In this document: one piece after another, positions 5,638 through 63,669 of the stretch
Numbering within the stretch: position 1 is the stretch's first letter
How the letters are laid out: every line of letters begins with the position of its first letter
NCBI GenBank assembly: GCA_046563655.1
Contig: CM102288.1
Coordinates: 558,001 to 622,000 of the forward strand
Length of the DNA: 64,000 bases
Reading direction: 5' to 3'
Source of the DNA: Yuukianura sp. NJ FZ-2021
Lineage: Eukaryota
Made by a program: the position numbers and the translations under genes
Notes under the pieces: model-generated
Told to the model about the DNA's origin: nothing
The model's database searches: none
The model's input: only the letters and a program-made list of their open reading frames with translations

Positions 5638-5926
5638 GTTAATTTTTATATTTAACTTTGTTTAAATTAAAAGTAACTTTTTTAAATTAAATTATTCTAA
5701 TTTAATTAAAATCAACACAAGTCACCAAATTCCCAGACTACGGAACTGCTCCGAAAGAGCAAGTACAAAAAACAATACGCTGTTTGTTGTGAAAATGGTT
5801 TCCAAGGTGACACAATGCGCAAAGGGGGAGCAGGGGACAACCCCTAATCAAAATGCATAAAAATTTTTATTCTAAAAATATTACCTGTACAATAAAATAT
5901 TAAAATTGCAGTAAATTGTACTCTAG

Positions 5927-21009: not shown

Positions 21010-23257
21010 ATGTCTGGTGTGAACGCGGCTTTACTGGGAGTTGAATGTGGTGCAACGAGGTCAACAGCCATTTTGAAATTTTTGAATGACCCCGCACGTC
21101 CAGAACAAATTTTTAACTTTGGACCTTCAAATTTGAGACTTCTTAAAAACGAAGGGCAACTTGAACCGTATTTTAAAAATGTTCGGGAGAAAATTGAACA
21201 GGAAGTGCATGGCGTTCGGATTTTGAGAATCGGAATTGGAATGTCCGGGGTCAGAGAGGATTGTGACCGACAGGTAAAAAATTGAAAACCAAAACTTTAT
21301 TTTTTGAAAATAATTTAAAAATTTTGGATTTCAGGCTGTTCGGGAAGTCGTGGAACGAGTTTTCCCGGATCTGGAAAAAGTTTGGGTGGGAAGCGACCAA
21401 GAAACGGCAATTGCATGTTTAACAGATGACGACGAAGTGCCGAAATTTATTGTGATTTGTGGTACCGGTTCTGGATTGTTCGGAACTAACGGTTCAACGA
21501 CTTTCAAAATTGGAGGCTACGGACATATAGTGGGCAAGAAAAAAATTTCAGAAAAAAATTTTGTCATGATTTTGACAAAAAATTATGATTTTCAACAAAA
21601 ATTTACCCTAAGCCTGGTTCACACAACTCACGCTGTTTCCCAAAAGTGGAAAAAAAAATTTTGCTCACATTTTTTTAAAAGTATTCTTTTCATGTAGGTG
21701 ACCGCGGTGCTGGTTACACTGTTGCACAGAACGGTCTGAAAGCCGCATGCGCAGAATATGATTTAAACAACGAGAAATCTTCTCTTCTGGACTCGTTTAT
21801 GAAGGCAATGGACTGTGAATCCATTGAAGATGTCTGCACGAAGTCGCTAAGTCCAGAATATACAAAATCCAAACTAGCTGCCCTTGCAACGCTAGTTCTT
21901 AGTGCATGGGAGTCGAATGACCCAGCGGCTACAAAAGTAGTCAACAATGCTCTGGATGAACTCGCAGCAGATGCTGCCTGTTTAGCCGTGAAGCTCGCAC
22001 GGTCAAAACCTGGAACTAAGCAAGTCAGTGCCGGACTTACCGGAAGCCTACTCACCAAAAATGAAAAATTCCGTACCGAATTTGTGAATCGCGTGAAACG
22101 GCACGTGAGAAAGTTCGTACCGGGCTTAACTCTAAACGTCACTGTACTTCACCACACGTTTCACGGTGGATTGATGATGGTTTCAGACAAAGAAAACCGC
22201 GACGTGAAAACTTCCACTGAAAAGTCAGCTGATCGTCCAATCACAGAAGAGGAGTTGGAACAGCTGATTCTGCCCATTCGAACGGCCTTGTCTCCCACTG
22301 AAACTCGGAATCCAAAATCCAAAAACTTAGATAAAATGTCAATTTCAGAAGCAATGGACTTGTGGTTAGAAGAGGAGAAGTCAATTTACGAAAAAATTGC
22401 GCAACAAAAACCAATTTTGGAAAAAATCATTGCTCGTGTTGCGGAAACTTTTCGAAATGGTGGGAGGTTATTTTATGCAGGAGCAGGAACGAGTGGAAGA
22501 TTAGGAATTCTGGATGCTTCTGAGTGTCCGCCTACTTTCCAATCGCCTCCAGAATGGGTCCAAGGTTAGTTTCAAAATTTCAACAAAAAACTCAAAAAAA
22601 AAATTTTTTTTCCCAAAATTTTAGGAATAATTGCGGGAGGAGAAGAAGCAATTGTCAATTCGAAAGAGTCAGCAGAAGATTCAGTTTTTGGCGGATCAGA
22701 AGCCGTGGAGTCGCGTGGACTCAATTCAAAAGACATTCTAATTGGTTCGAACTTTTCAAAATGTCTAAGAAATGAACTTTTCAAAAACTTTAAAAAAAAA
22801 TTTTTTTTTAGGAATTGCTTCTTCCGGCACAACTCCGTTTGTCTGGGGAGCAATGTATAGAGCCAAGCAGCTAGGAGCTTTTACGTGTTTCTTGACCTTT
22901 AACCCGCACCTTGACCTCAAATTTCAACCAGATGAAACGATTGTGGTTAATGTTGGACCAGAAATACTGACTGGAAGTACGAGACTCAAATGCGGAAGTG
23001 GAACTAAAACCATTTTGAACATGATTACAACTTTGGCGATGGTTCAGTTTGGAAAGTGTTTGGAGAATTTGATGGTTGACCTTGACCCGGCATGTCAAAA
23101 ACTTAGAGAACGAGCTCTCAGAATAGTTTTGACGATTGTCAATAATGCAAGTGATGGTGACGGAACTGCACGACACATTCCGGAAGATGTTGCTCAAGAA
23201 ATTCTTGTGAGGAACAACTACGACATTAAGAAAACAGTCCAGGAATTGAAAAACTAA
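21010..23257 (+). CDS. murQ: Fusion of a BadF/NAGK-family sugar kinase with an N-acetylmuramic acid 6-phosphate etherase (MurQ); 5 exons (21010-21273, 21335-21533, 21698-22564, 22625-22744, 22812-23257)
   Basis: Kinase motifs GVECGATRS, ICGTGS, GGYGHIVGDRGAGY; MurQ motifs TETRNP, GAGTSGRLGILDASECPPTF, ESAED, GIASSGTTPFV, GPEILTGSTRLK, NLMVD; spliced frame is continuous. Confidence 0.9.
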
Positions 23258-25783: not shown

Positions 25784-26306
25784 AAACAAACACTGAATCA
25801 CACGATTAAGAAACTAAATCCATTAACACGCCCTTGGAGGTGACTACGTCTTAATTTTAAAAAGTTTTTAAAAAATCATGTGATGCATCACCTCCAGAAT
25901 CCAGAAATTTCAAGTATAAATACTGGCTTAGGGCAACTCGGAAACCATTGCACTCTTGCTCCACTCTTTTACCAAAAACGCTTAAAACTTCCAAATTTTT
26001 TCGAAATTTCAAAAATTTCTACTCGTCAAATTTTGCATTTTGAGCAACCTGTTTGCTCATTTGTGAATTTGTAACACTTTTTTTGGAAGTGGAACCATTT
26101 AATGGGTAGAAACCATTTCCTAATTTCGACAGCCGAATTTAAATTTGTCCTCTTCTATACCAAGTACACGATTCCTCCAGTCACAAACACCATTAGGTGT
26201 AATTTATCCAAACTCAGAAAAAAATAAATTTTCAAAAGAAAAAGCTTTTTTCAAAAAACTAATTTTTTCTAAAAGGAAGTACTTTTTAAAAAAAAACTTG
26301 AGAAAC

Positions 26307-28861
26307 ATGCCTTCAACTTGTTGTGAAACTAAGGCCGTACCTGTCTCCACTCCTTTGATTGAAACTGCTCCTGTTCCATCCAAGGTCAAGGTCACGGCGA
26401 CACTTCATCCACTGGACTCTTTGACCTTGACTGAAATTGCTGCTTCAGTTCGCATCATTCGCGCGAACTATCCCACGAAAAAATGGATTTTCAATGCTGT
26501 TTCGCTCGAAGAACCTGAAAAAACTGCAGTTCTGGAGTACATTAAGGCTGAAGAGAGAGGGGAGACCATGACACTTCCGGTCATACCACGTCGGTCCAGA
26601 GTCATACTCATTGAGCATTACACTGGCAAGGTCACGGAGGTCACGATCAACTTGACCTCGGAGGTCATTGACTCCTACGAAGACATTCCCTTTGGTAACC
26701 AACCCACTTTTACCATGGAAGAGACAGTTATTGCTGAAGACATTGTGAGAAAGGACGTAGGAGTTCAAAATCGGTTGGCCAAGATGGGAATTCAAGATTT
26801 TGACAACGTCGTGTCTGATCCATGGTAAAAAATTTAGATTTCACTTTTCAAAATTTCAAAATTTCAACAAAAAAAAATCAAAATTTTGTTTTTTCTAGGG
26901 TTGTGAGTTACGAAGGAATGGATCCGAAGTTAAGAGGGCGTCGTCTCATGCAGTCCTTCATGTACATACGGTTGTACGAACATGACAATCACTACGCACA
27001 TCCATTAGATTTTGCACCAAGTAAATTTTAAAATTTTGAAATTTGAAAAATGGATTTTTGAAATTGACGCTTTCTGACAGTCGTGGACATGGCTACGGAG
27101 AAAGTTGTGGCGATTGAGGATGTTCCTGTTCATCTGGACATGAAGACCCCCGGGAGGTCAAAGGTCACGTACCCCAAGAAATGCAGTAACTTTGTCCATG
27201 AGTTACATCCAGAAGGATTCCTAAGAAACGACATCAAGCCTCTTCAGGTTGTGCAACCGCAAGGACCAAGTTTTAGCCTCAAGGGGAACGAAGTCAGTTG
27301 GCAAAAATTCAAAATCCGAATCGGGTAACAACGCAAACATAACAAAAAAACTAATCTGGGTCAATTCTTAACTGACATTTGACCTTGACATTCAGATTCA
27401 ACTACCGCGAAGGACTCGTGTTGCACAACGTGTCGTACCAAGATGGCGACCGACGCCGTCCTTTGATATACCGCGCCTCACTGTCCGAAATGATCGTGCC
27501 GTACGGCGACCCCCGACCTGTGTACCATCGCAAATGTGTTAGTTTCAGACTTAACTAATTCGTTAATTAAGATTGTTAATTAGTTAATTATAATTTAGGC
27601 TTTTGATGTGGGTGAATATGGACTTGGATACTGCACAAACTCTCTGCAACTTGGTTGTGACTGCTTGGGTACAATCAAGTACTTGGATGCGCACGTCGTC
27701 AATCACAAGGGCGAACCAACCACAATCAAAAATGCAATTTGCATTCATGAAGAAGACGATGGAATTCTGTACAAGCACTACGAGTACAGAAACAATCATG
27801 TCACTTTGGCACGATCGCGCAAACTCATCATCTCTTTTATCGTCACGGTCGCCAACTACGAATATGCTTTCTACTGGACTTTTCGACAAGATGCTTCCAT
27901 CCACTTTGAGGTCAAAGTAAGTTGTGACCTTTGACCTTTTCAAAAATTTCAATTATTTTCAAAAACTTTACCCTAGGCTACTGGAATCATCAGCACGATT
28001 CTTCGACTGGACGGTGAAAAGGCGTCTTTTGCTTCTCCTGTCATGGACAACGTGAGTGGCCAGTTTCACCAACATGTCTACTGCATGCGACTGGACACAA
28101 TGTTCGATGGTGTCAAAAACACAGTCTACACTGTAGACACGACTCCACTCAAAGGCAACGTAGGCTCAGAGGACAATCCGTGGGGACAAGGATTCGGTTC
28201 GGCCATGACGCCGCTCAAACACGGTTTTTCGGACAATTCGACGGAAAAGTCTCGGTTCTGGGTCATTGGGAACGACGACAACCGACATCCGACAACTGGT
28301 GGACCGACATCGTGGAAACTGTACCCGGGAAATCCGGTTCGGCTCATGGCCAAACCAGGAAGTCACATCTACGAACAAGCTGGATTTGCAAGACATGCTG
28401 TTTGGGTAACACCTTACGACGCAGAGCAAGTGTATCCAGGTACACTTTTACAAAAACTTTTCAAAATTTACCAAAAAAGAAACTGCTTTCAAAATTGTGT
28501 TTTGAATTTGTTAGCTGGGAAGTACATCAATACGATCAATGGTTTCAACGGTTTGGCTGAATGGGCACAAGAGGAGAAAAATACTGAAAATGAGGACATT
28601 GTGCTATGGCATGTCTTTGGAACTACGCATGTCGTTCGAACAGAAGATTTTCCAATTATGCCAGTGGAGTAAGATTTTTTCAAACAAAAATCATGGAGTT
28701 TTGAAAAGTTTTTTAAAGTTTTCTTTTCCATTTTAAGATCTTGTGGGTTCGCTCTGAAGCCTTTCAACTTCTTCCTTTGCAATCCGGCTCTGGATGTTCC
28801 ACCTCCGGATCGAAACGAAAACAAAAGCGCTCAAGTTCTTTCCATTGGAAATGGAAAATGA
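26307..28861 (+). CDS. Copper-containing amine oxidase (TPQ-dependent), multi-exon, no signal peptide
   Basis: HPLDSLT, AFDVGEYGLG (catalytic Asp), VANYEY (TPQ motif), HQH and HVVRTEDFPIMP copper ligands, FFLCNPALDVP. Confidence 0.93.
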
Positions 28862-32525: not shown

Positions 32526-35295
32526 TTAGTATCGAGCAGAAGATAAGCAAGATGGTGGTGTATAGCAAGAAGGAGGCGACGGCAGCATAAGCGGTGGTTT
32601 GCTGATGCCGTAGAATCCTGGTGGCGGCAGAGATACTGGCGTAGGTGGCGCTGAATTTGAAAGAAGCGCTGAAATTCGTCCAATTCCTTTCACAGCTCCA
32701 TACCCAACGAGAACCAAAAGTCCAGTTCCAAAGAGAAGGAATTCCAACCCACAGTCGCTTACGCTTCTCTGTCCAGATAAAACCTAAAAAACAATTTTGA
32801 AAAAAATATTTAAAAAAAAACTTCTTAAAAATAAGCTCCAAAATTTGAAAATTTTAGTTTTAGAACAAACCTCTCTTAAAGTTCCAAACTGCTCGGCAAA
32901 AAATGTTGCGTCTTGTGCAGAAGCCTCAGAAACTGTCAAAATTTCTGGAGAATTTCCAGGTTGTTGCTGCGAATCGCTGTTGTCCGCCGTATTTCCAGCA
33001 GCATCAGGTGAATTCAAAGTTTCTGCACCACCGTCAGCGCCTTGAGTGGCTGCAAGGCCGGCTTGATCTGCACCTTCAGGTGAAGTTCCTTCGGCTGCAC
33101 CTTCCAACGTAGTTGCTTCGGCTCCACCGTCTGACGAACTTGGTTCGACGGAATCTTGTGCTGCACCTTCCGTCGGTACAGTTTCGGTTTGTTCTCCACC
33201 TTCGGTCTCCCCAGCAGCAACTGTCTCATTGCCACTCGAACTTTCAATTTCCGACGTTTCTGACGATTCGGCACCCTCCGCCCCTTCACGAGTCTTTTCA
33301 AGCATTCCTTCATCCCCTTCTGCACATTTAGCTTCGCCAGAGTCTTCTCCTGTTGTATCTGCACATTCTCCTGTGGCCTCTCCTGTTGCTGCGACTTCTG
33401 TGGTAGCCTCTCCTGTTGCTGCGACTTCTGTAGTGACTTCTCCTGTTGCTTCGACTTCTCCAGTGGCTTCTCCTGTTGCTGCGACTTCTCCAGTGGCTTC
33501 TCCTGTTGCTGCCACTTCTCCAGTGGCTTCTCCTGTTGCTGCGACTTCTGCTGTAACTTCTCCTGTTTCTGCCACTTCTCCGCAACCTCCTTGACCTTCC
33601 GTTTCTGCTGTAACGGCAGCGTCAACACAGGGTTCCGTTCCTTCAGCAGTCTTTTCAAGCAATCCTTCCTCACCTTCTGCGCAATTAGCTTCTCCTGTTG
33701 TATCTACACATTCTCCAGTAACCTCTCCTGTTTCTGCGACTTCTGCAGTAACCTCTCCTGTTGCTGCGACTTCTGTAGTGACTTCTCCTGTCGCTTCACC
33801 TTCTGCAGTGACCTCTCCGCAACCTCCTTGACCTTCCGTTTCTGCTGCAACGGCTGCTTCAACACAGGGCTCCGCAGCTTCAGCGACTTTGTCAAGTTGT
33901 TCTTCCTGGCCGCCCGGCTTGTCGTCGCAGAGAGGCCAAACAACTTCCGGATTTTGGCCGTCCTTTGGCTGATCCCGGCGCATTAGTTCTAAAGTAAACA
34001 ATTTAGTATTCAAATTTAACATTGTGACCTAGCATGACCTAAACTTCAAAAAATCAACCTCCAACACAAGTTCCAGTTGGCATTTGATCCAGTGCTGCTT
34101 CATCTGGTGGAGGAGGAAACTCCAAGTCTGCTGCTACAACTTGAGGAGATCCAGTGACAGTGTCGCTTCCGGGAGTCACAGTGGCAAGAGCATGATTTTC
34201 TTGGGTTGGTTGAAGTGGGATTCCACTCATGGGCTGAGGCTGACATCGTTTGACCTCATCTTCTTGACCTTTGACCTTTGCCTGTTGACCTTCCTTGACC
34301 TCTTGTTCTTGTGTCAAAGTGTCTTGGTCAGTCTTGGCACCTTGACAACCAGAAAGTTGGTCTCTTCTTACTCCAAGACGTTCCAGTGCAGCAGCGATCG
34401 CTTGAGCATGTTCCAGTGCAGCACTCATGTTTCGCACTTGCGTAAGGAGTGCTTGAACTTCTTGACAAATCAGTCTGTCCAGACTCTTGGTCGAAAGATT
34501 CAGAAGGTCAGCGTTCGGCTCACTTGATCCCTGCACTCCCTCACCTACATTTTTAAATTTTTCAAAAAATGCAAAAATTTTAAGCTTCTGGAAACTTTTT
34601 GTCATCTTTGAATGTGTTTTTATAAAGTTAGAGTGACCTGTACACTTGACCTCTCCTTGACCTTCTGCCACCATTTCCATGTTTGATAGTAAGTTGGTGA
34701 GAACATTAATTTGTTGATCCAGACGATTCTCATCTGTATCCTGCTGACATCCTTCCGGTAGCAGTTGAAGTTCACCCGCTCGGCGATACTTTTCTGCAAA
34801 TTTAGTCCCAACTTCAACAGAACTCTTTACGAGTTCTTGAAGTCCCGAGAGACGCCTGCGCAGCGATTCGGGGTCATTCGGGTCATCGCTTTTCCCAGTC
34901 CCATCTCCAACTCCTTTGGCCTTCTGTCAAGTACACAAATGGTTGAAGTCAGGTTTAACGACCATCATTATAGCCGCATAGTGTTGCCACTCCGCCATTT
35001 TAAGTGGCTACACCGTGTGGCAACATGTGTTGCCACCCATTGTAACTAATTAATGGATTACCGGTGCCGAAGATCCAGCTCCTCGTCCGAGCTTTTGATC
35101 CAAGTAGTCAGCAACGAAACAGTAAATGTTTTGGGGTTTACGATTCAGCACCTAAAAGTATCATTAAACAAATTTTTGCTGTTTTTTGAAAAAGAAACTG
35201 TGTTTTTTAAACTTTGCCTGTGTGGAAATGTCTTGAAGGAGCTTTTCAAGGCCGGGGGGTAGCGGTGGCACAAAGTCATCGCAAGGATTTCCCAT
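32526..35295 (-). CDS. RIIa docking-domain protein with a long acidic repeat region and a C-terminal hydrophobic anchor
   Basis: Spliced N-terminus LPPGLEKLLQDISTQ|VLNRKPQNIYCFVADYLDQKL; EVAATGEATG repeats; FLLFGTGLLVLVGYGAV near the C-terminus. Confidence 0.65.
33360..33870. repeat. Coding 30-nt tandem repeat nested in a larger duplicated block
   Basis: TCTCCTGTTGCTGCGACTTCTCCAGTGGCT-like units; EPCV..AETEGQGGCGEV occurs twice. Confidence 0.85.
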
Positions 35296-36044: not shown

Positions 36045-37177
36045 ATGGACACAATTCTAGAACTGCATGACAAGTACCTGTTGACACCTTATGTTTATCC
36101 AAGTGACTGGGCAGAGGGGTCATGGACACGACAGTACATTTCTCTTTTTTTCATCATCACGATCAATGGATACGTACTGTACTTTTTAACGGCTGGACTC
36201 AACTACTGCTTAATCTTCGACAAACGACTGCTCCACCATCCACTCATTCTAGAAGTAACAAAATATGTTAATATTTAAATATATTAATGTATTTTAATAT
36301 ACTGTTGACTTTACAGAATCAAATTTCAAAGGAAATTGGAGTTGCCTGTAGATCTGTTCCTGTCATGGCCATCCCTACAGCACTGTGCTTCCTACTGGAA
36401 GTTCAAGGTTATTCTAAACTCTACCATTCGGTCGACCAAGCATATTGGGGTAATTTTTCCAAAAAAGTTCAAAATTTTCAAAAAAAAAAAAACAAATCAG
36501 AATTCACATATAAAAAATCAAGCATTTGAAAAAGTCTTTGGGTTCTACCGAAAACAAAAACCTTCGGTCCACAGTGCAAACTTTTTTGTGACTTTTGAAC
36601 GTAAAGCAGACGAAATTGTAAGTTGACCTTTGACCTTTTGATTTTGAAATGCTTTTTTCTACTTGTAGGTTGGATTTCCGTCATTCTGAGTGTCGTGACC
36701 TTCATCCTATTCACAGACTGTCTAATATACTGGATCCACCGTGGTCTCCACTCCCGTCTTCTGTACAAACGTCTTCACAAGACACATCATCTGTGGAAAG
36801 TGGCCACGCCCTTTGCATCTCACGCATTTCATCCCGTCGACGGATTTCTGCAGAGCCTGCCCTACCATCTCTATGTCTTCCTCTTCCCAATGCACAAGTA
36901 CGCATCTCTCCTCATGTTCGTACTCGTGAATATCTGGACAGTGTCGATCCATGACGGGGACTTCCGAGTGCCCAGGGCCCTTAGACCCTTCGTCAATGGC
37001 TCTGCTCATCACACTGACCATCACATGTACTACAACTTCAACTACGGACAGTTCTTTACGCTCTGGGATAAAATTGGACGGAGCTACAGAGAACCGGCGG
37101 CCTTCTGTGGGGATTCCCCAATGGACCAAATACTGCGCAAAGCAGTGCTAGATCAGAACAAAAATAAAAGTTCTTGA
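36045..37177 (+). CDS. SC5D: Sterol C5-desaturase / lathosterol oxidase (SC5D/ERG3-like), copy 1
   Basis: His boxes [42 protein letters not shown]; 3 exons. Confidence 0.9.
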
Positions 37178-37513: not shown

Positions 37514-39017
37514 ATGGACACCGTTCTGGAATTGTATGACGAGTACTTGATGACCCCTTATGTGTACCCCAAGGGGTGGTCAGAGGGGTCATGGTCACGA
37601 CAGTTGTTGACATTGTCATTGGTCCTCACTCTCTACGGATACGCTCTCTACTTCGTCTTGAGTGGACTCAGCTACTGGCTGTCATTTGACAAGCGACTGC
37701 TCCAACATCCATTATTTCTGGAGGTAAAATAATATTTAACAGGCAGGTTGCGTTATAAATCATTTAGAGAAATTATACAATTTACGATGAGGAGTGACAT
37801 CACTTTTTCCAACTTTTTGAATTTTCAAAGTTTAACACGACCTCTAAAGTTCCGTAAACGAGAAAAGTTTGGAAAGTGACGTAACATATTTGGAATCGAC
37901 CAATCGCGGGAGCCGTAACAAAACGGGTGGAAAGAGGCGGCACTTGCTAAATTCTATACTTTTATAAATTCTGATTTGAAAGTTTGAAACCCAAACTCCC
38001 TAATATATTTATAATTTTAGTTAATTTTAGTGTTCATTTTATATTTCGTTTCATTTAAGAATCAAGTTGGAAAGGAAATCAGAGCCGCCTGTGAGTCAAT
38101 TCCTTTGATGTCCATATTAAGCGCTGCGTTCTTCCTCCTCGAAATCCGCGGTTTTTCCAAACTCCACCATTCCAGCGACGGCGGTGCATGGGGTAAATTA
38201 AATTAGTTTTATATTTAAATAAAATAATAAATAAATTCAGAAATCAAAAGCAAATTCAAACCTAATTTACATGGAACAAAACTCTCAAGTTTTTCGTAAG
38301 TACTATAAATACGTTTCTTGGGGAAGAAAAACAACATAGTAAACGAAAAAGTGTGCAAAATTTCGTTTCTCAGAAACTCCGTGCTTTTTTCACACCTAAA
38401 ATTTTCCCCACGAGGAACCAATTTCCCAGGATCTGGAAATTAAAAATGATATCAAACATCAAAATTCGTTTTAAATTAGTTTCCAGTTTCCTAAAATTTT
38501 GACTATTATTTTCTTAGGCTGGATTTCCACTTTGTTCGAGATCATGACGTTCATAGTTTTGACGGACTTGGCATTTTACTGGACTCATCGTGCCCTTCAC
38601 TCTAGTTTGCTCTACAAACGTTTCCATAAACTGCATCATAAATGGAAAGTGACCACTCCCTTTGCAGCTCTTGCAATCCATCCCCTAGATGGATTTGTCC
38701 AGGGACTACCCTACCATATCTACGTCTTCATCTTCCCCATGAACAAAAACGTTTTCCTTTCCCTCTTTATGTTGATGAATATCTGGGCAGTATCGATACA
38801 TGACGGTAACTTCAAAGTACCCAGAGCCCTTAGACCCTTCATCAGTGGGACGGCACATCACAGTGACCATCACATGTACTACCACTACAACTACGGTCAG
38901 TACTTTACCTTCTGGGATAGAATTTTCGGAAGTTTTCGGGAACCTTCGGCATACACCGGACAGTCTCCATCCCACAAAGGCGCTGGGAATGACCTTCTGC
39001 TGGACAAGAAACAATAA
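37514..39017 (+). CDS. Sterol C5-desaturase-like, copy 2
   Basis: Paralogous 3-exon structure; HRALH, HKLHH, HHSDHH. Confidence 0.85.
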
Positions 39018-39985: not shown

Positions 39986-41060
39986 ATGGACATCGTTCTA
40001 GCACTGCATGACGAGTACTTGATGACCCCTTATGTGTACCCCAAGGGGTGGTCAGAGGGGTCATGGTCACGACAGTTCTTGACATTGTCACTCCTCCTCA
40101 CTATCTACACGTACGCTGTGTATTTCACTTTTGGCGGACTTATTTACTGGTTGTCCTTTGACCAGCGTCTGCTGCAGCATCCCTTGGCTATGCAGGTAAA
40201 TAAAACAAATTCATTTATAATTTTAATAATAAAAGTAATGTTTTATATTTTATTTAAGAATCAAGTTGCAAAGGAAATCAGAGTCGCTTTTAAGTCAATT
40301 CCTGTGACTGCGACTTTCAGCGCTGCGTTCTTCCTCCTCGAAATCCGCGGTTTTTCAAAACTCCATGATTCCAGCGACGGCGTTTGGGGTAAATAAGTTA
40401 CTCTTCTATTTAAATATATTAAATAATTTAAATATAATAGATAATTTAAATAAGATAATTTAAATATAATAGAATAATAGTGGGTTAACAAGGCTCTAGT
40501 CTACGTCTGCGGCGCACAACTCGCTCCTGAGTGCCGAATTTTAACTTCCGGTGTTTCTTACAGGCTGGGTTTCCATATTGTTGAGCACCATTACGTTCAT
40601 TGTCTTCACTGACTTTTCACTTTACTGGATTCATCGTGCCGTTCACTCTCGTTTGCTCTACAAAAGGGTACATAAAAGGCATCATCAATTTAAAGTGCCC
40701 ACTCCCTTTGCATCTCTAGCTGCCCATCCTCTGGATGGAATTCTCCTTGGACTACCCTATCACATCTACGTATTCCTTTTCCCCATGCACAAAAACGTTT
40801 TCTTTGCCCAGTTTCTACTCATTTCTGTGTGGGCAATATATCTACATGACAATAACTTCAAACTGCCCAGAGTCCTTAGACCATTCATCAACGGTACGGT
40901 ACATCACACTGACCATCATTTGTTTACCAACTTCAACTACGGTAACTACTTCAACGTCTGGGATAGAATTTTCGGAAGTTATCGGGAACCGTCGGCATAC
41001 ACCAGAGAGTCTCCCCTACACAAAGTCCCTGGCAATGACTTTCTGGATAAGAAACAATAA
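39986..41060 (+). CDS. Sterol C5-desaturase-like, copy 3
   Basis: HRAVH, HKRHH, HHTDHH; exon 1 and 3' flank similar to copy 2. Confidence 0.85.
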
Positions 41061-42773: not shown

Positions 42774-44434
42774 TTAGTCTTGCCGTTGGAACGTCATGAG
42801 ATCAAAGGTATTGTCCGGAGTTGTCCAGATACTTGTAAAGCCCAGTTCAGCCGCATGTCCACTGAGGGTGACATGTCGATCCATGATGGATCCCGGTAGT
42901 TTATGGTCGCTAAGAGACAGATTCTTGATGTTTGGTTCTGACAGGGCAGCTCCAATCGTCTCGATAAACTCCACGACCGGAAGAACTGTGCCCATTGGAC
43001 CAGGAACTGGAGTAAAAAACTGGAGATTGATGACCGTCAGGGATTCGGAGTGCAGAAGAAGGTGTTCCAGATCTTCAATGTCGAGATCGACATACTTGAG
43101 CTCCAGTTCAGTCAAAGTGTTGAGTAACCATGACGACAAGTTCCGGTGTCTCAGACCATAGTATCGTGCATCGCCCCATATCTTCAGGTATTTCAGATTG
43201 ACAAGATGTGCAATGTGGTTCCAGTTGAAGGGGTCAACGTTAGTGGAGTCTCCGTTGTAATTAGTAATTGAGTACAGTTCCAGCTTGGTCAAGGTTCCGC
43301 TGAGAGCTTTTAGAATTGGCTTGTAGAAACGCCACATAACAGCGTCGAAGTTGCAGATTAACGTTGACAAATTCGTTTGAGACACGATGAAGCCACGGTA
43401 GATGAAGAGGTGGTGCAGAGTCACTCCTGGACAGTAGATGATCAATGTACTCAGTTTCATCGGATAGTCGCTGCGAATTGACTGTCCAAGTGAGTCGTCT
43501 GTTGGTATTATGTTCTCTTGCTGGTGAATATGATTTCGCCAATTGTCAATTCGAATCCGAAATTCTTGAACGTTTGGATGAAGAAAGGCTTGTTGCAGAA
43601 TTTCAAAAACGGAGTCTGATGTCACGTCAGGCGGAAACTGGCGAAGATCAAACTCAATCGTAAGGAGCTTGAAACTCAAGCTATGATCCAGGTAGGATTT
43701 GAGCTCAGCTTGTGTCAGATGCTCATTGATGACAAGAGTCTTCCCATCTTTTGAAGATGTCTTGACTTTATCTGACTTTCGGTTCACACGAAGATGATCT
43801 CCGCTATCTTTTTTCAGATCACATGAATACCACATTCGGCCAAGAACTTCATTGGTTGGCTCTAGCTCAACGACGTGATGGCGCGGAGAGGCATTGGCGG
43901 ATTGACGAGGCGTCCCAACCTGAAATATCAATAACGACATGAAATCGTTTCATTGTTTAACTTTTAACGATTTTATCATATTAAAACCTTGCTAGCTGGC
44001 AGTGAATACTGTATTCGAAGGTCATCGCCGTGACCGTTTGTGAGAAGTTTGACGTTGACAACTACCGGTTTCTCTTCTTCTTCTTCGTCCTCATCAGGAG
44101 TATGTTCAGTTTCAGTTTCAATGTCGCCCTCTTCATGTCGTGGTCCAGAAATTTGTTTGAAACCGTCATCGTTCTCTTCTGGCTTAACTTTGGATGTCTT
44201 TCTGAAGCAGAAACACAGTCGAACGAGGTAAGTAATAATGGCACACAATCTTCTCAGGAGCCAAAATGTGCTTCGGCACAGAATCATGCTCCTTGAAGAA
44301 TTTGAAGTTCGTCTGGGAGATGGTAACGGTAATTGATCTACGTTTTTCCCTAGTTGCGATTTGCGTTCCATCAAACCAAGGTGAATCGGAGACGATACAG
44401 CATTTGACCTCCTGGAAATAAACAAATTCAACAT
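42774..44434 (-). CDS. Uncharacterised protein with a leucine-rich/RNI-like C-terminal region; 5' end uncertain
   Basis: Two long co-oriented ORFs joined by a short intron; LxxLxL repeats (LTKLEL, LKYLKI, LTELEL). Confidence 0.55.
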
Positions 44435-52617: not shown

Positions 52618-54435
52618 ATGTTGAAAGGCAAAGAAATTGGGTACAAACAGCAAAGTTTTGAGGATTCTTCGTCTGAAGAGGACGAGGTCAAGGTTTCACC
52701 GAAGGCACGGGCATCGGAACAACTCAATTTGACAAGCAAGTCACACTGACATCAGTTTCTTGAAAATGAAATTTTGAAAAATAAGAAATCAAAAATCTTG
52801 ATTTAAAATGTCTTGTTTTTGTTAGATGCAGCCGATTTTGGAAATTCCCCGACTGGACGAGTAAAAGTTCAAGTTCAAAAGATTCCGCGTAGTAGCGTTC
52901 CAGAACATTCGACAGATACGGATAATGGCTGCTGTCCAAAAGCGTGTTACTCAACAAAATGTGCTGTGACTGGAACTGTCATGACGCTGATCGTTACTAT
53001 AATTTTGATCGTGACCCTTGACCTCGCAATTTTCGGAGCGGAACGATACGGTCATCGACGTCCTTATGTCATTGACGAAACGAATACGACGCTTGTCAAG
53101 TTCGAACTGAACGGTACAAGATCCGGATCCAGTAAGGTATTCGTCGCTTTTGAAGCGATTCCATCCAGCGACCGAGAGCAACTTGAGTCTATTGAGCTCA
53201 ACTTTGTTAAAGTCGGCATTCCCGAATTGGCGGAAACGTTGGACTATGCTTGGTATTTCAAAAATTTGAAAAACTTGACCCTGAGCAACGTTTGGCTCCA
53301 AGGGGTCATGCCTTGGGAAAACTACAAACGCTATAACGTTCCGAAGGGACTCGAAAACTTTCATCTTGCAGTCATTCGAGATATTGGACGAGATGAAGGA
53401 TTTACGCTGGATTTGTGTAACACATGCACTGGCAGCGATTTTAACCCGATTTTAGCAAATCGCTTCAACATTTCGTCGATTCTGCAGCGTCATTGTATCG
53501 AATCGCTGCTGTTTCTGAAAAGACCAAGCGATTGGGCTGGAAGTTTGGCAGAATTGAACTATAACTATTTTTTGTCCGTCTGGGGCTGGACACTTCTAAG
53601 TCTCAACAATGTCACAGGCGAAGTGACCTCTACGCTTCCTTACAGTGACGAACTTATTCGGAATGTCACAAGGTCACCCAGATTTGGCCCCTCGGGGGTC
53701 AAGGTCATTCGATTGAGAAATGTCAAGGTCAACGTGTCCACCATCGTGTCACTCCCTCCGACACTTCAAGTCCTCCATTTGGACAATGTTGACCTTGAGG
53801 GGTTTCAAGGTCAAAGAATCTCTTCAATTTTGAAAACTTTTACTTCTCTGGAAGAATTAACTCTCAAATTCAGTCGTTTCCAGGATTCCAGTCCGCCAAA
53901 ATTTGAAATCTGGCTGGATGACCTCCCGGGGTCACTCAAAAGTTTGACCTTGGCAAATGTCATACTCCAAGTTCAGCCAAACAGCTCAGCCAACTTTCAC
54001 TTGACAGATCTTAACATCTTTGGAGCCCATTTGCAAAATGACGACTTTTTGGAAAATTTTTCAAAATATTTCAAAGTAAAGAGGATCGCTTGGCAAGTTG
54101 AAAAATTTAGTGGATCGCCAACAAAAAGGAGTTCGTGGCTCAGCGTTTTGGTGGCTCTGGCCATGGCGGATCCGGATTCGATATATTTAGACAAAAATGG
54201 ATCGGTTCGCTTGTCTCCAACGGCCCCACCACTCAAATTGATCCAACTCATTCCACCGTTGACCTTTGACCTTGGCACAAAAGCCATCACGCTATCAAAG
54301 AGAGTTCCAAATTTGGAGTTTTTGGGCCACGCCCCCACGGGGGTCATTGACTCTTCGCCGACATCTACTTGGTTCAAACTGCTCAAAGTTAATGCATTTT
54401 TAGACGACAAATTTATGTTGGAGTACAATTGGTAA
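52618..54435 (+). CDS. Type II membrane protein with a large leucine-rich, N-glycosylation-site-rich ectodomain
   Basis: Short first exon (GC donor at 52736) joined in frame to a 540-aa ORF; TM VMTLIVTIILIVTL; LxxLxL repeats. Confidence 0.7.
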
Positions 54436-54801: not shown

Positions 54802-57800
54802 ATGTGTCGTGCAGAAACACTTCCAAAGTACTTGGTAATTTTAATCTTACTGGTAATTCATGTCGAATCAGCACTACATCAACCGCAAACGGTAAAACTC
54901 GGTAAGCTAAAAAAATTTCAATTCATCAAAAATGTGAACAATTTAATTTTTAAATGTTCAATTTACATTTAACAAGTAAAGCATTTTAACAAGAAAATCA
55001 ACAGGAAGTGGAATTTTTATGATGTGGAATTTTTGGTCAAATTTTGCACATCTTGCCAAAAAAAAAATTTAGTTAGTCATTTCTGAGAACTGCTTTCTCT
55101 TTTTTTAATTTCTGGCTTTGTATCAAAAATGTGGTTGCAGTAAACTCTAAATATGCTTATTGTAACCACCATTATAATGCATGGAAATTAAAAATAATAA
55201 TTTAATATTAATATTAATTAATTAAATATTAATGTTTATTAATTTATTATATTTTGTTGTTTACATGTTAAAGGTGGAATGTTTGACATTTGGGATCCTT
55301 ATGAAGAAACGGCTTTTCTCCATGCTGCTGACAGGGTCAATTCAGATCAAAATGCTTTTAAGATGTTCAACATTGGAGCGATGCTAGAAAAAGTTCAAAG
55401 GGGAGACTCTTACAATGCATCTAAACAAGGTTCGAACAAGTTTTTAAAACTTTTCAAAATCCAAATTTTGAAAAATTTTGGATTTTGGTTTTTCAGTCTG
55501 TAAGTTACTTCAAGAAGGCATTGCTGGCATAATCGGTCCACAAACTCCTGTGACTGCAAGTCACGTTCAATCCGTGTCTGAAGTTTTTCATATTCCGCGT
55601 ATTGAAACGAACTGGGACTTTAGGGGCAACCGAAGCCGAGGGCAGTTCCTCATCAACTTGTATCCACATCCGGCAACACTCAGCAAGGTTTCAAAATTTT
55701 GAAAAGTTTACAAAAATTCAAAAATTTTGAAACTTTATTCCTCATTTCATTTATTTTAGGCGTATGCTGATGTTATTCGAGACTTCGGTTGGTCTGAAGT
55801 GATTATAATTTATGAAAACAACGAGAGCTTGATTCGACTTCAAGGAATTTTCGAATTAACGGGAGATGTTATCAAGCAGTACGTTGTCAAATTGCTTCCA
55901 AACAACGAAGAAGGTGACGATTTCAGGTAAAATTTTGAATTTCGAAATTTTGAAAACCAACTTTTTCAAAAATTATCAACCAAAATTTACAAAAATAGAC
56001 CGTTGATGAAAGATTTAAAGACAAACTTCCACTCAGTCAATCACATCATTCTGGACTGTCACACGTCCAAGCTGCGTCGGATTTTTGAAGATGCCAAAAC
56101 CGAGAACATGTTGACGCATGCCCATGAGTACTTTTTGACCTCACTGGACATCCATATTCTGGATCCAAGTGACGAGGCATTTCAAAATGTGAATATCACG
56201 GCCTTCCGACTAGTCGATCCAGCAAATCCGAAGTTACAGGGCATTCGGGAGTCGTGGAATGTCAACTCGGCTTTAGTCGGAAAACGAGCAGATTTCTCCG
56301 GACAAGATCCGTTCCGCGTACCACGGCACAAATATGACTCCAACTCGTTTCCGAATTTAACACTAGACATGTTCATGGTAAAGTTCAAAAACTACTTTTC
56401 AAAAACTAGTTTTCAAAAAAGTCGTGTTGTTTTAAACTTTGAAGGTCGATACGGCCCTGATTTATGACGCGGTGGAACTGTTCGCTTCGGGACTCGATAA
56501 ATTTTCCAAGGAATTGAGGCAAGAGTTGCAAACTGAAGTGCTCGACTGTGACTTTTTTCCAATTCGTTACTGGAGTCAAGGACATGAATTTATGAAAGCA
56601 CTGAAAGATGTAAATTTCGATTAATTTCAATCGATTACAATCCGTTTTAGCCAATTTACCTCCGCGTGACCTCTGATTACTTCAATTATTGACCTTTCAT
56701 GACCTTTGACCTTACTATTTAATAGGTGACATTCCAAGGGGTCAGCGGCGACATTCGAATTGACGACGACGGGAAACGCAGAAAATTCAAAATGGAAGTC
56801 GTGGAGTTGACAAATAACGTATAGTTTTTAATTTTTTTTTTCAAAATTTTTCAAATTGGTTCAAAATTTTGAAAATTTGGAAGAAAAAGTTTTTTTTTAG
56901 AATATCACTGTGGTTGGGGTATGGAGTTCGTTGGGACAACGACAGAACTTGAATTGGACCAGAGATGAAAGCGAAACGCTGAAATTCCAAATTCAAGTAC
57001 TGAAAGGACAAACTTTTATTGTAACAACGAAAGAGGTTTTGAACAAAAAACGAAGCAACTCATTAAAATTATGTAACTTACTTTCTGATATTTCCATTTT
57101 TTTTTCAGAGTCTGCCTTATATAACGTTTTTTGAAAATGGGACGACTCCCGAAGGCTACAGCGTGGACTTGATCCAGAAACTTGCAGAACAACTTGAATT
57201 TAACTACGTTTTTAAAAAAGTTGATGACGGGAAAATGGGATCACCCGATCCGAGTTCCAAACACGGATGGAATGGACTCATTGGCGAAATTCTGGAAGAT
57301 GTAATGCTCACTTTTCGAGAAAAAAAAAAGAGAGAAAAGAAGAAGCTAAATTCAAAAATTTAAGCACAATGAAATTCTGTTGACGATGTATTTTCAGAAA
57401 GCTCAATTGGCCATAGGTGACATGAGCATCACTTCTGCTCGAGCTAGTGCGGTAACAGAATTTCGAAAATTTTGAAATGAAGAAGTAAAGAATTTTGAAA
57501 TTAACTTTTGTTGTTACTTATAGATTGACTTTTCGTTGCCGTTTATGAACATTGGAATCAGCATTTTGTACATGAAACCAGAGAAACGTGCTCCAAATCT
57601 ATTTTCGTTCTTGGATCCATTTCACTACGAAGTTTGGATCTACATGGCCACAGCCTACCTTGGCGTCTCCCTCACTCTGTTCATTTTGGCACGGTAAAAG
57701 AAACCCAAATTTTGAACAAAATTTTTAAATTTTCGAAATGTTCAAAAAAAAACTTTCGTAGAATTGCGCCCTCCGAGTGGCAAGTGACCTCCAGCGGAAG

Positions 57801-61417: not shown

Positions 61418-63669
61418 TTACACATGGTATGTCAATCCGCTTGACGTGGCACTTTGTGTCGAAAGTCTTCTGAGAACTGATCGGTCGTGCTTTGAAATCC
61501 GGCGATTGAGTTCTTCTAACTCGTTGTATTTCCTAATATAAAAAGTTGTGTTTTAAATTATAATAAACCAGGATGTGCTTAGTGGGGCTTCGCCCAAGAC
61601 CTGCTCAACTGTATTAATTTTTTAACCTATTCTGGAATTTTTTAAATTTCCATAAAAAAGGAAAATGCACTGTACTGAATTTGTTAGCCTAATCCTGACT
61701 TTTTCCAAAAGTCCTTCTGTAGAAAGTTAGAAGGTGTGATGGTGTTTTTAAAAATCAATATTTTGGAATTTTTTAAATTTCCATAAAAAAGGAAAATGCA
61801 CTGTAGTGAATTTGTTAGCCTAATCCTGACTTTTTCCAAAAGTCCTTCTGTAGAAAGTTAGAAGGTGTGATGGTGTTTTAAAAAAACAATATTTTGGAAT
61901 TTTTTAAATTTCCATAAAAAAGGAAAATGCACTGTAGTGAATTTGTTAGCCTAATTCTGACTTTTTCCAAAAGTCCTTCTGTAGAAAGTTAGAAGGTGTG
62001 ATGGTGTTTTGAAAAAACAATATTTTGGAATTTTTTAAATTTCCATAAAAAAGGAAAATGCACTGTAGTGAATTTGTTAGCCTAATCCTGACTTTTTCCA
62101 AAAGTCCTTCTGTAGAAAGTTAGAAGGTGTGATGGTGTTTTAAAAAAACAATATTTTGGAATTTTTTAAATTTCCATAAAAAAGGAAAATGCACTGTAGT
62201 GAATTTGTTAGCCTAATCCTGACTTTTTCCAAAAGTCCTTCTGTAGAAAGTTAGAAGGTGTGATGGTGTTTTTAAAAATCAATACTTTGGAATTTTTTAA
62301 ATTTCCATAAAAAAGGAAAATGCACTGTAGTGAATTTGTTGGCCTAATCCTGACTTTTTCCAAAAGTCCTTCTGTAGAAAGTTAGAAGGTGTGATGGTGT
62401 TTTGAAAAAACAATATTTTGGAATTTTTAAATTTCCATAAAAAAGGAAAATGCACTGTAGTGAATTTGTTGGCCTAATCCTGACTTTTTCCAAAAGTCCT
62501 TCTGTGGAAAGTTAGAAGGTGTAATGGTGTTTTGAAAAAAACAATATTTTGGAATTTTTTAAATTTCCATAAAAAAGGAAAATGCACTTTAGTGAATTTG
62601 TTAGCCTAATCCTGACTTTTTCCAAAAGTCCTTCTGTAGAAAGTTAGAAGGTGTGATGGTGTTTTAAAAAAACAGTGTTTGTTAAGTTTTTAAATTTCCA
62701 TAAAGAAGGAAAATACGTGTTAGACAATTAAAATTCGAGAGTATGGGAATCAAATAGTAACAATGAAATTTCCGAATTGAATCTCAACTGAAACCTCTCA
62801 TTTAGTATATAATGGTGGATTAAATAAAGTATATTAAGCATTTTTAAGTAGTTACCTGTCAGAAATGACGTATTGGTGACTGAGTGTTTGCCAGTAGAAG
62901 ATGATGCTGACAATACAGATCAACAGAAGTACTGGGATCATGATGAACGTTATGCACATTGCCGGTGCTGTGTTGAATTTGATCCAGCCCAACAGTACTA
63001 CGTCCACAATGAACAGGAATATTGACACTGAGTTGGCCAAAACCTTGAGAAATTACACAAACTTTTCGGCAAATACTTTAATTTTTTTTTAGAATTTGTT
63101 AAATTTTTACCCAAGCTAGGTCAATATAAAAAATGAGAAGATTGTGCGGTGACTGAGCGGCCAACTTGATAGAATTGACCTTCGCAATTGCTTCAATATG
63201 TGGAAGCAGACAAGTACAGATCATTATGGACTGAAATTCGAAAAACATAAAATTTTGAACCCGAATCTCAAAAAATTTCAAAATTTTCCAAAAATCTTAC
63301 CAACAAACAAGCACTGACGAGCAGCGATGTCGTAATTACAAAAGCCGACAGTAGGAACTCATTCGTGTCAGGTTGAATCTGCAGTTCAACCGTCGCTACG
63401 ACCGAGAATCCTGCCATTCTGAAAACCAAAATTTGAAAAAAATTCAAAAATCTGAAGAAAAAAAATTTCAAAATCTTTCTTTCAAAATATCTCCAAAAAT
63501 CTTACAGTGCCGCAATTTCCGTTACACCTTTGAGCTTTGCCTTGCTCAACTGCAGGCGTCTCCAAATCAATTGTTCAGGCTCCGTTTTGTCATCGTCTAA
63601 ATTTTCCACTTCCCGCCCCAATTCGTCCAAAATGTCCAGTCCAATGCCCCTGTCCATGTCCATTTTCAT
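61418..63669 (-). CDS. Orai: Divergent Orai (CRAC) calcium channel subunit, 5 exons
   Basis: WRRLQLSKAKLK; TM1 AALMAGFSVVATVELQ; TM2 MICTCLLPHIEA; TM3 LFIVDVVLLGWIKF; TM4 IMIPV; C-terminal ELEEL. Confidence 0.9.
61634..62712. repeat. Tandem repeat of ~131-bp unit, about 8 copies, in the last Orai intron
   Basis: Units start at 61634, 61765, 61896 and onward; near-identical, with no spacers. Confidence 0.95.

What the first reader, a model, noticed from the sequence alone, without database searches (positions are those of the whole stretch)
61418..63669. Orai with natural substitutions at key gating residues (H134C, R91E and E190D equivalents)
Seen, by gap-free manual alignment to human ORAI1 recalled from memory: TM2 VSACLLSIMICTCLLP against VAVHLFALMISTCILP puts Cys at the H134 position (codon 63307-63309). 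KLKGVTEIAAL against KLKASSRTSAL puts Glu at R91 (63517-63519). TM3 LFIVDVVLL has Asp at E190. The selectivity residue E106, G98/F99/V102, the TM4 proline and the C-terminal ELEEL helix are retained. Established: small substitutions at H134, including Cys, give store-independent open ORAI1; R91 lies in the basic inner pore and R91W causes SCID. Inference: this may be a constitutively active or differently gated Orai paralogue.
Basis: partly seen in the sequence, partly recalled or inferred. Interest (0 to 1): 0.72.

Follow-up and report, generated by a model that had tools for sequence, protein, structure and literature searches.

The report
Springtail-type Orai lacking histidine brake
This is an intact gene for an Orai calcium-entry channel whose unusual gating residues are real, but they are the shared signature of a whole springtail-type group of Orai proteins with a rebuilt gating interface, not an oddity of this one copy.

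Summary
A five-exon Orai gene lies on the minus strand at 61418-63669 (234 aa, all introns GT-AG). Formal HMMER alignments to Drosophila Orai put Cys at the H134 position, Glu at R91 and Asp at E190. They keep E106, V102, F99, G98, the TM4 proline and both C-terminal leucines.

The interpretation needs changing. These residues are not private to this copy. All 10 named springtail Orai clusters retrieved (Allacma, Orchesella, Folsomia) have T, S or C at H134 and Asp at E190; 9 of 10 have Glu at R91. With the window's protein they form one clade (support 100/100, stem 1.65 changes per site).

The clade differs from 221 other Orai proteins at about 20 near-fixed positions on both faces of the TM1-TM2/3 interface.

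In human ORAI1, H134C opens the channel, M101V abolishes gating, and R91E and E190D are nearly neutral. The likeliest reading is a co-evolved interface in a channel still gated by STIM. Constitutive opening is not excluded. No canonical springtail copy was seen, but the genome could not be searched.

The parts
63506..63669 (-). Exon 1: start codon at 63669-63667, short N-terminus, the conserved N-terminal stretch next to TM1 (L-x-W-R-R-L-x-L-S-K-A-K-L-K) and the start of TM1. Ends in phase 2.
   Evidence: Weak phmmer match to Drosophila Orai, E 0.06-0.12. Gap-free alignment to springtail Orai proteins.
63517..63519 (-). GAA codon, Glu51, at the position of human R91 / Drosophila K163.
   Evidence: Clade column: E 15, Q 2. 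Others: K 104, R 46, T 17.
63301..63418 (-). Exon 2: rest of TM1 (G58, F59, V61, V62, T64, E66), the TM1-TM2 loop and the first half of TM2.
   Evidence: Pfam PF07856, 27.4 bits, profile positions 26-68; phmmer to 6bbf/4hkr.
63400..63402 (-). GTC codon, Val61, at the position of the human M101 'gate latch'.
   Evidence: clade: V 13 of 18 informative rows; others: M 168 of 199. M101V is loss-of-function in ORAI1.
63391..63393 (-). ACG codon, Thr64, at the position of human M104 in the hydrophobic cluster.
   Evidence: clade: T 20 of 22; others: M 201 of 220. Cluster membership taken.
63385..63387 (-). GAA codon, Glu66, the selectivity-filter glutamate (E106 equivalent).
   Evidence: E in 26 of 26 clade rows and 217 of 220 others.
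63307..63309 (-). TGT codon, Cys92, at the position of human H134 / Drosophila H206.
   Evidence: Clade column: T 16, S 6, A 2, C 2, no His. Others: His in 212 of 221.
63111..63230 (-). Exon 3: second half of TM2 (including I96 at L138), the TM2-TM3 loop and the start of TM3.
   Evidence: Pfam, 35.7 bits, profile positions 70-110; phmmer E 9e-8 to Drosophila Orai.
62856..63043 (-). Exon 4: TM3 (S141 at G183, F145 at F187, I146 at L188, D148 at E190), a short TM3-TM4 loop, TM4 with P171 (P245), and the hinge T-L-S-H-Q in place of L-V-S-H-K.
   Evidence: Pfam, 30.0 bits, profile positions 112-172.
63002..63004 (-). GAC codon, Asp148, at the position of human E190.
   Evidence: clade: D 25 of 26; others: E 204 of 221, D 6.
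61418..61532 (-). Exon 5: C-terminal helix K-Y-N-E-L-E-E-L with both leucines of the STIM-binding pair (L202, L205), the tail, and the TAA stop at 61420-61418.
   Evidence: The exon 4/5 junction gives a gap-free match to S-D-R-K-Y-x-E-L-E-E in relatives.
61628..62714 (.). 131-bp tandem repeat, 8.3 copies, 96% matches, filling most of the 1323-bp intron 4.

Best explanation
The locus encodes a functional pore subunit of a store-operated (CRAC-type) Ca2+ channel. It belongs to a divergent Orai clade whose named members are all springtails (Collembola). In the ancestor of this clade the contact surface between the pore helix TM1 and the TM2/TM3 ring was rebuilt as a set. On TM1, the serine ridge lost its hydroxyls (S89V, S93A, S97A; S90T) and two methionines of the hydrophobic cluster changed (M101V, M104T). 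On the facing helices, residues became small and hydroxylated (V133T/S/A, H134T/S/A/C, G183S, L188T/I), together with L138I and E190D. The pore-lining R91 position also changed, to Glu. I infer that the loss of the histidine 'steric brake' is offset by the other changes. On this reading the channel still rests closed and is opened by STIM through the retained N-terminal stretch, the hinge and the C-terminal leucine pair, perhaps with a shifted set-point and shifted pH sensitivity. Shown here: the gene model, family membership, the residue identities, the clade and its signature. Inferred: the compensation, STIM dependence and expression.
For: An intact spliced ORF, with Pfam Orai hits on three exons in collinear order. 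Alignment to Drosophila Orai fixes the residue equivalences. In the careful tree of 28 rows, the 18 non-His rows form one clade at 100/100 with a stem of 1.65. The window sits in a 7-row subclade at 99/96 with Allacma P0160. The quick 40-row tree agrees, with SH-aLRT 98. Signature counts, 26 clade rows against 221 others: H134 has 0 His against 212 His; M104 is T in 20 of 22 against M in 201; G183 is S in 24 of 26 against G in 218; S93 is A in 17 of 18 against S in 184; V133 is T/S/A/C in 26 of 26 against V in 208; E190 is D in 25 of 26 against E in 204. Pore and gate residues stay fixed within the clade: E106 in 26 of 26, F187 in 26 of 26, F99 in 18 of 19, P245 in 24 of 26. That argues for a working channel under selection. 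The STIM-coupling parts are kept: the equivalents of L74, W76, S82 and K85 and of L273 and L276, and the S-H of the hinge. Literature: M101V and other M101 substitutions lose STIM1 gating, and M101L attenuates H134S. LoF+GoF double mutants in this region give LoF. Neither single-mutant phenotype can therefore be read across to this protein, which fits epistatic compensation. R91D/E is gated normally and E190D keeps selectivity. Every named springtail Orai seen is of this type (10 of 10). If all of them were permanently open, these animals would have no gated Orai.
Against: H134A/C/S/T each open human ORAI1 without STIM1, and the equivalent of H134A also opens ORAI2 and ORAI3 (abstract). The brake role is thus conserved across vertebrate paralogues. 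One close relative, P0156 (59% identical to the window's protein), has Met at M101 together with Ala at H134. M101V therefore cannot be the sole compensator. Other clade changes lie at sites where human mutations activate: S97 (listed activating substitutions S97C/M/L/I/V; here Ala), the hinge L-V-S-H-K (here T-L-S-H-Q) and F250 (here Ile). No functional, expression or STIM data exist for any member. The presence of STIM in this genome could not be checked. My search could have missed a canonical springtail Orai, because 79 of the 199 hits were not listed.
Confidence: 0.55

Rival explanations
1. This is a constitutively open or strongly leaky, STIM-independent Ca2+ channel. Losing the bulky His releases TM1, as in ORAI1 H134C.
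For: [quoted passage not shown] H134A/C/S/T are all constitutive, and activity rises as the side chain gets smaller. The H134A equivalent also opens ORAI2 and ORAI3. The clade accepts only T, S, A or C at this site. There are further changes at S97, F250 and the hinge, where human mutations activate. P0156 combines Met101 with Ala134.
Against: M101V and a polar residue at M104 are loss-of-function changes in ORAI1, and loss of function dominates in double mutants. The C-terminal leucine pair and the N-terminal stretch, which serve STIM coupling, are conserved across the clade. 10 of 10 named springtail Orai clusters share the state, so no gated copy would remain. A permanently open Ca2+-selective channel carried as three or four paralogues per genome is physiologically hard to accept (inference).
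Confidence: 0.2
2. This is a modulatory or heteromer-only subunit. One of several springtail Orai paralogues co-assembles with the others and tunes gating or selectivity, rather than forming its own channel.
For: At least four paralogue lineages exist within the clade. Allacma has four clusters, Orchesella dallaii three and Folsomia two. The lineages differ at the K87 position (K in the window's subclade, S in most others) and at H134. One Allacma paralogue (P0113) has lost the filter Glu, which suggests functional diversification.
Against: The window's protein keeps every pore-lining residue needed for a homomeric channel: E66, V62, F59, G58, K47 and K43. Nothing here tests assembly.
Confidence: 0.15
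3. This is a decaying or unexpressed copy, and the substitutions reflect relaxed constraint.
For: No RNA evidence could be obtained. The protein is only 46-59% identical to full-length relatives (68% to the fragment P0166), and it sits on a fairly long branch.
Against: The 705-nt ORF is intact across five exons with four canonical GT-AG introns. All pore, gate and hinge landmarks are kept. The unusual residues are the conserved state of the clade, not private changes.
Confidence: 0.05

Closest known systems
Drosophila melanogaster Orai (PDB 4HKR closed; 6BBF/7KR5 H206A open; 6AKI P288L)
   Same: Same family and four-TM layout. The TM1 filter Glu, the Val/Phe hydrophobic gate, Gly98, Phe187, the TM4 proline, the same hinge length and the C-terminal L-x-x-L are shared. 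About 35% identity over 205 aligned positions.
   Different: The fly protein has K163, M173, M176 and H206, a Ser-rich TM1 back face, G255 and E262. The window has Glu, Val, Thr and Cys, a Val/Thr/Ala/Ala back face, Ser and Asp. The fly numbers M176, G255 and E262 are derived from the +72 offset given in papers, not read from a structure.
Human ORAI1 gain-of-function mutants H134C/S/T/A
   Same: The same small residue at the same TM2 position facing TM1.
   Different: Those are single changes in an otherwise canonical background. Here the partner residues on TM1 and TM3 (S93, S97, M101, M104, G183, L188) have changed too. The human equivalents of some of those changes abolish gating.
Annotated springtail proteins 'calcium release-activated calcium channel protein 1' (Allacma fusca, Folsomia candida, Orchesella cincta, O. 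dallaii)
   Same: The same clade and the same signature. The window groups with Allacma P0160 (53% identity) in a subclade supported at 99/96.
   Different: Most have Thr or Ser at H134. Cys occurs only in the window and O. dallaii P0157 among rows covering at least 120 of the 173 core columns, and in fragments P0057 and P0084. The window's subclade keeps Lys at K87 where most others have Ser. No named protein is more than 53% identical, so the source species is not among them.

Membership tests
Orai / CRAC channel pore subunit (Pfam PF07856) | Profile match above the curated cut-off | tested here: met
   Exons 2, 3 and 4 score 27.4, 35.7 and 30.0 bits against a cut-off of 25, on consecutive profile positions 26-172 of 173.
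Orai / CRAC channel pore subunit (Pfam PF07856) | Four transmembrane helices with TM1 lining the pore | tested here: met
   Four hydrophobic segments at about residues 49-69, 81-99, 135-153 and 165-183, each aligned to TM1-TM4 of Drosophila Orai. That TM1 lines the pore is inferred from homology.
Orai / CRAC channel pore subunit (Pfam PF07856) | Selectivity-filter glutamate (E106) and hydrophobic gate (V102, F99) with G98 | tested here: met
   E66, V62, F59 and G58.
Orai / CRAC channel pore subunit (Pfam PF07856) | Basic inner pore (R83, K87, R91) | tested here: inconclusive
   K43 and K47 are kept, and Glu51 replaces the third basic residue. This position also varies outside the clade (T 17, Q 7, S 7 of 196 informative rows). 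R91D/E is functional in ORAI1.
Orai / CRAC channel pore subunit (Pfam PF07856) | TM4 proline kink, hinge, and C-terminal helix with the leucine pair that binds STIM | tested here: met
   P171, a hinge T-L-S-H-Q of the same length as the fly L-V-S-H-K, and L202 and L205 in E-L-E-E-L. Binding itself was not tested.
Orai / CRAC channel pore subunit (Pfam PF07856) | Hexameric assembly and activation by STIM after store depletion | not testable with these tools
   The spliced protein cannot be handed to the structure tools. No genome is held in which to look for STIM.
Canonical (His-brake) metazoan Orai | Histidine at H134, with Met at M101 and M104, the serine ridge S89/S90/S93/S97, G183 and E190 | tested here: not met
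   The window has C, V, T, V/T/A/A, S and D at these positions. Others have H 212/221, M 168/199, M 201/220, S 184/194 (at S93), G 218/220 and E 204/221.
Springtail-type non-His Orai clade (defined here) | Placement inside the clade on a tree, and its signature residues | tested here: met
   Clade 100/100 and subclade 99/96. The window carries the commonest clade residue at most of the 27 signature columns listed, and a minority state of the clade at the others, such as V133, H134, L188 and L261.
Springtail-type non-His Orai clade (defined here) | The source organism is a collembolan | tested here: inconclusive
   All 10 named clade members are Collembola. The nearest relatives of the window (P0166, P0156, P0004) are unnamed metagenome proteins. 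A second gene used to place the organism returned only fungal and bacterial names.

The most novel reading that the evidence does not exclude
Springtails have replaced the canonical Orai with a family of three or four paralogues. In these the histidine brake, the methionine latch and the TM1 serine ridge, three elements thought central to CRAC gating, are all gone, and the polarity of the TM1-TM2/3 interface is swapped. If these channels are open without STIM, or are gated by a different trigger, they would be the first natural STIM-independent Orai channels. If they are STIM-gated, they show that the gating interface can be rebuilt wholesale, and they give a ready-made natural set of compensating mutations.
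Probability: 0.2. Interest if true: 0.75.

Novelty: new variant of a known kind. Interest (0 to 1): 0.55.

Why it matters
Current models of Orai gating rest largely on single-residue mutagenesis of human ORAI1 and fly Orai: the H134 steric brake, the M101 sulfur-aromatic latch, the serine ridge and the hydrophobic cluster. Here a whole animal lineage carries, as its normal state, substitutions that individually either lock the human channel open (H134C/T/S/A) or kill its gating (M101V; for the hydrophobic cluster that includes M104, small or polar substitutions). These sit alongside an intact pore and intact STIM-coupling motifs.

That is a natural epistasis experiment. It tells experimenters which about 20 positions to move together. 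It also offers a direct test of whether the brake and latch are mechanistic necessities or one of several workable solutions.

I found no paper linking Orai with Collembola or discussing H134 in arthropods. Searches returned one incidental co-occurrence, zero papers, and nothing relevant among the eight of 192 that were listed.

Tried and rejected
- **Own genome.** A search for a canonical Orai or for STIM could not be made, because no genome is held for this window.
- **Source names.** The listing of cluster members, which would have named the sources of unnamed clade members, is switched off. Names came from the search for homologous proteins instead.
- **RNA evidence.** No RNA holder was listed by the look-up of sequencing runs.
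- **Earlier findings of this scan.** Nothing by place, sequence or words.
- **Placing the organism with a second gene.** The copper amine oxidase exon returned fungal and bacterial names and one unnamed 70% hit, but no animal. The taxon is therefore not pinned.
- **First tree.** The careful search with the mixture model on 40 rows did not finish, and only its quick tree was used. I rebuilt with 28 rows under LG+G4. I left out nine long-branch rows (P0018, P0072, P0085, P0094, P0110, P0113, P0142, P0143, P0148) and three redundant insects (P0169, P0175, P0251).
- **Canonical springtail Orai.** A third database search aimed at one was judged useless. Only the best 120 hits are listed, and insects would fill the list.
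- **Structure and complex prediction.** Not run. The spliced protein is not accepted, the hexamer exceeds the copy limit, and a monomer model returns no coordinates for measuring contacts.
- **Second Orai in the window.** tblastn finds only this locus. The gene lies 331 bases from the window's end.
- **A simple 'M101V compensates H134C' pair.** Rejected as the whole story, because P0156 has Met101 with Ala134.
Full report
**What is at the coordinates**

Reading the minus strand and joining five open stretches at GT-AG borders gives a 705-nt coding sequence of 234 codons plus TAA. The exons are 63669-63506, 63418-63301, 63230-63111, 63043-62856 and 61532-61418. The introns are 87, 70, 67 and 1323 bases long. 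The long intron is mostly a 131-bp tandem repeat (61628-62714, 8.3 copies).

Pfam's Orai-1 model (PF07856) matches exons 2, 3 and 4 one by one. Each match is above the curated cut-off, and together they cover consecutive profile positions 26-68, 70-110 and 112-172 of 173. Exons 1 and 5 have no Orai hit in Pfam. Both align without gaps to the corresponding parts of relatives. Exon 1 also has a weak phmmer match to Drosophila Orai (E 0.06-0.12). A hydropathy scan finds four hydrophobic segments. tblastn finds no second Orai in the window, but the gene lies only 331 bases from the window's right end.

**The three highlighted residues**

phmmer against Protein Data Bank chains aligns exon 2 to Drosophila Orai. 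The window's Cys92 falls opposite the His of 4hkr and 6aki, which is Ala in the H206A entry 6bbf. Exon 3 continues TM2 in the same register. Papers equate fly H206, M173, F171, F259 and K163 with human H134, M101, F99, F187 and R91, a constant offset of 72. Cys92 is therefore the H134 position.

Exon 1 aligns Glu51 with the fly Lys that corresponds to R91. Asp148 falls at E190 in every multiple alignment made. GAC lies at 63004-63002.

**These residues are not peculiar to this gene**

With exon 4 as query, the only database hit was an Orai of the springtail Allacma fusca (P0001; 54% identity over the exon; 1 hit among 23 candidates). It already shows Glu at R91, Thr at H134 and Asp at E190.

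A full HMMER scan with P0001 found 558 Orai relatives, of which 150 were listed. A profile search then returned 199, of which 120 were listed. Ten of the listed clusters carry springtail names: Allacma fusca 4, Orchesella dallaii 3, O. cincta 1 and Folsomia candida 2. At H134, all ten lack His (Thr 6, Ser 3, Cys 1). At E190, all ten have Asp. At R91, nine have Glu and one has Gln. The seven named non-springtail proteins aligned beside them have Lys or Arg at R91 and Glu at E190. Six of the seven have His at H134; the hemichordate Ptychodera has Asn.

**Tree**

The careful tree had 28 rows and used LG+G4. I left out nine very long-branch rows and three redundant insects, as listed under Tried and rejected. 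In it, the 18 non-His rows form one clade with support 100/100 on a stem of 1.65 changes per site. The window sits in a 7-row subclade (99/96) with Allacma P0160 and five unnamed metagenome proteins. The earlier quick tree of 40 rows gave the same clade at SH-aLRT 98.

Inside the clade there are at least four paralogue lineages, each holding several springtail genera. The duplications are therefore old and came after the signature arose. The window's nearest relatives are unnamed:

- P0166, 68% identity over 160 columns
- P0156, 59%
- P0004, 58%

The nearest named relative is at 53%. The source species is not among the named ones, and its being a springtail is an inference from the tree.

**The full signature**

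I aligned all 259 Orai proteins fetched plus the window's product. I kept the 247 rows that cover at least 120 of the 173 core columns, and took the clade of 26 from a FastTree (node support 0.85). I then counted residues in the clade against the other 221 rows.

| Position (human numbering) | Clade of 26 | Other 221 |
|---|---|---|
| H134 | T 16, S 6, A 2, C 2, no His | H 212 |
| V133 | T/S/A/C in 26 | V 208 |
| L138 | I 19 | L 213 |
| G183 | S 24, A 2 | G 218 |
| L188 | T 15, I 9 | L 204 |
| E190 | D 25 | E 204 |
| S93 | A 17 of 18 | S 184 |
| S97 | A 15 of 19 | S 153 |
| S89 | V/I 15 of 17 | S 142 |
| M101 | V 13 of 18 | M 168 |
| M104 | T 20 of 22 | M 201 |
| R91 | E 15, Q 2 | K 104, R 46 |
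| K265 | Q 23 of 24 | K 174 |
| L261 | I/T/M/V/A in 24 of 25, no Leu | L 195 |

By contrast, pore and gate residues stay fixed in the clade. E106 is present in 26 of 26 rows, F187 in 26 of 26, F99 in 18 of 19, V102 in 18 of 22 (the rest Ile or Leu) and P245 in 24 of 26.

The pattern is striking. TM1's back face loses its serines and methionines, while the TM2 and TM3 residues that face it become small and hydroxylated. I read this as a swap of polarity across the interface. That is my inference, based on published descriptions of a serine ridge and hydrophobic cluster packing against polar and non-polar stripes of the TM2/TM3 ring (passages in PMC7825772).

**What the literature says about the single changes**

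I read passages, and one whole section of PMC7679135; I did not read any of these papers in full.

[quoted passage not shown] H134A/C/S/T are all constitutive, and smaller side chains open the channel more (review PMC7825772). The H134A equivalent also opens ORAI2 and ORAI3 (bioRxiv 10.1101/2021.10.26.465861, abstract only).
- **R91.** R91D/E do not open the channel and are gated normally by STIM1 (PMC7034092).
- **E190.** E190D keeps Ca2+ selectivity but shifts external pH sensitivity in divalent-free solution by about two units (PMC4649748).
- **M101 and the hydrophobic cluster.** M101G/A/S/T/C/V/L/I all lose STIM1 gating, and M101L attenuates H134S (PMC7679135, section 8). Small or polar substitutions in the cluster, which includes M104, abolish gating. 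Double mutants combining one loss-of-function and one gain-of-function change in this region come out as loss of function (PMC7825772).

**Interpretation**

Taken one at a time, the window's residues predict opposite outcomes: open (Cys134), dead (Val101, Thr64 at M104) or neutral (Glu91, Asp190). The clade nevertheless conserves its pore, gate, hinge length, N-terminal coupling stretch and C-terminal leucine pair. It has also kept three or four paralogues per genome. The proteins are therefore almost certainly working channels.

The simplest reconciliation is that the interface co-evolved, and that the channel still rests closed and is opened by STIM. It may have a different set-point, and Asp at E190 could alter pH dependence. 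I put this at about 0.55.

A constitutively open or leaky channel remains possible, at about 0.2. The brake effect is strong and conserved among vertebrate paralogues. Several other clade changes lie at positions where human mutations activate. One close relative (P0156) pairs Met101 with Ala134, so M101V alone cannot be the compensator.

A heteromer-only modulatory role (about 0.15) and a decaying copy (about 0.05) are the other rivals.

**Comparison and novelty**

The gene is a member of the Orai family by every sequence test I could run. It fails the tests for the canonical His-brake type. It belongs to a springtail-type clade that databases simply label 'calcium release-activated calcium channel protein 1'.

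Three searches looked for prior description. Orai with Collembola, springtail or Folsomia gave one incidental co-occurrence. Orai with H134 and arthropod gave zero papers. Orai with phylogenetic, hexapod and store-operated gave nothing relevant among the eight papers listed of 192. Papers outside the held library were not searched. I rate it a new variant of a known kind.

**What remains open**

- Whether this genome, or any springtail, also has a canonical Orai. None appeared among the 120 listed hits, but 79 further hits were not shown.
- Whether STIM is present.
- Whether the gene is expressed.
- How the channel is gated.

None of these could be tested here.

Noticed in passing
window 26124-28672 (+): A multi-exon copper amine oxidase (N2 domain in 26124-26828, enzyme domain in 27977-28672). 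With the second exon as query, the best named hits among the 120 listed are fungi (Basidiobolus 39-40%, Colletotrichum 36-38%) and bacteria, with no animal. One unnamed metagenome protein is 70% identical. This may be a horizontally acquired gene in an arthropod genome.
   Followed up: partly
window 36605-37177, 38475-39017, 40545-41060 (+): Three tandem open frames, each matching the fatty acid hydroxylase family (PF04116, E 1e-25 to 2e-29). This looks like a local gene triplication.
   Followed up: no
window 61628-62714: A 131-bp tandem repeat, 8.3 copies, 96% matches, filling most of intron 4 of the Orai gene.
   Followed up: no
window 19165-19701 (-), 21679-22569 (+), 55931-56467 (+): Open frames with Pfam matches to glycosyltransferase family 64 (exostosin-like), to a BadF/BcrA-type ATPase with a glucokinase-regulator SIS domain, and to an ANF receptor ligand-binding region. 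Six other long open frames at 4090-8690, 32784-34926, 42774-43949 and 52807-54435 had no Pfam match.
   Followed up: no
P0001, P0002, P0113 (Allacma fusca, one 218,098-bp contig): Three Orai-like genes share one contig. P0113 has Asn at the E106 filter position and Arg at V102, so it is probably a non-conducting or otherwise diverged paralogue. It groups with the unnamed P0072.
   Followed up: partly
P0171 (Ptychodera flava) and unnamed P0018, P0110, P0142: Outside the springtail-type clade, a few Orai proteins have Asn at the H134 position while keeping Leu at L138 and Gly at G183. Three of the four also keep Met at M101, and P0142 has Leu there. The histidine brake has been lost independently elsewhere.
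   Followed up: no
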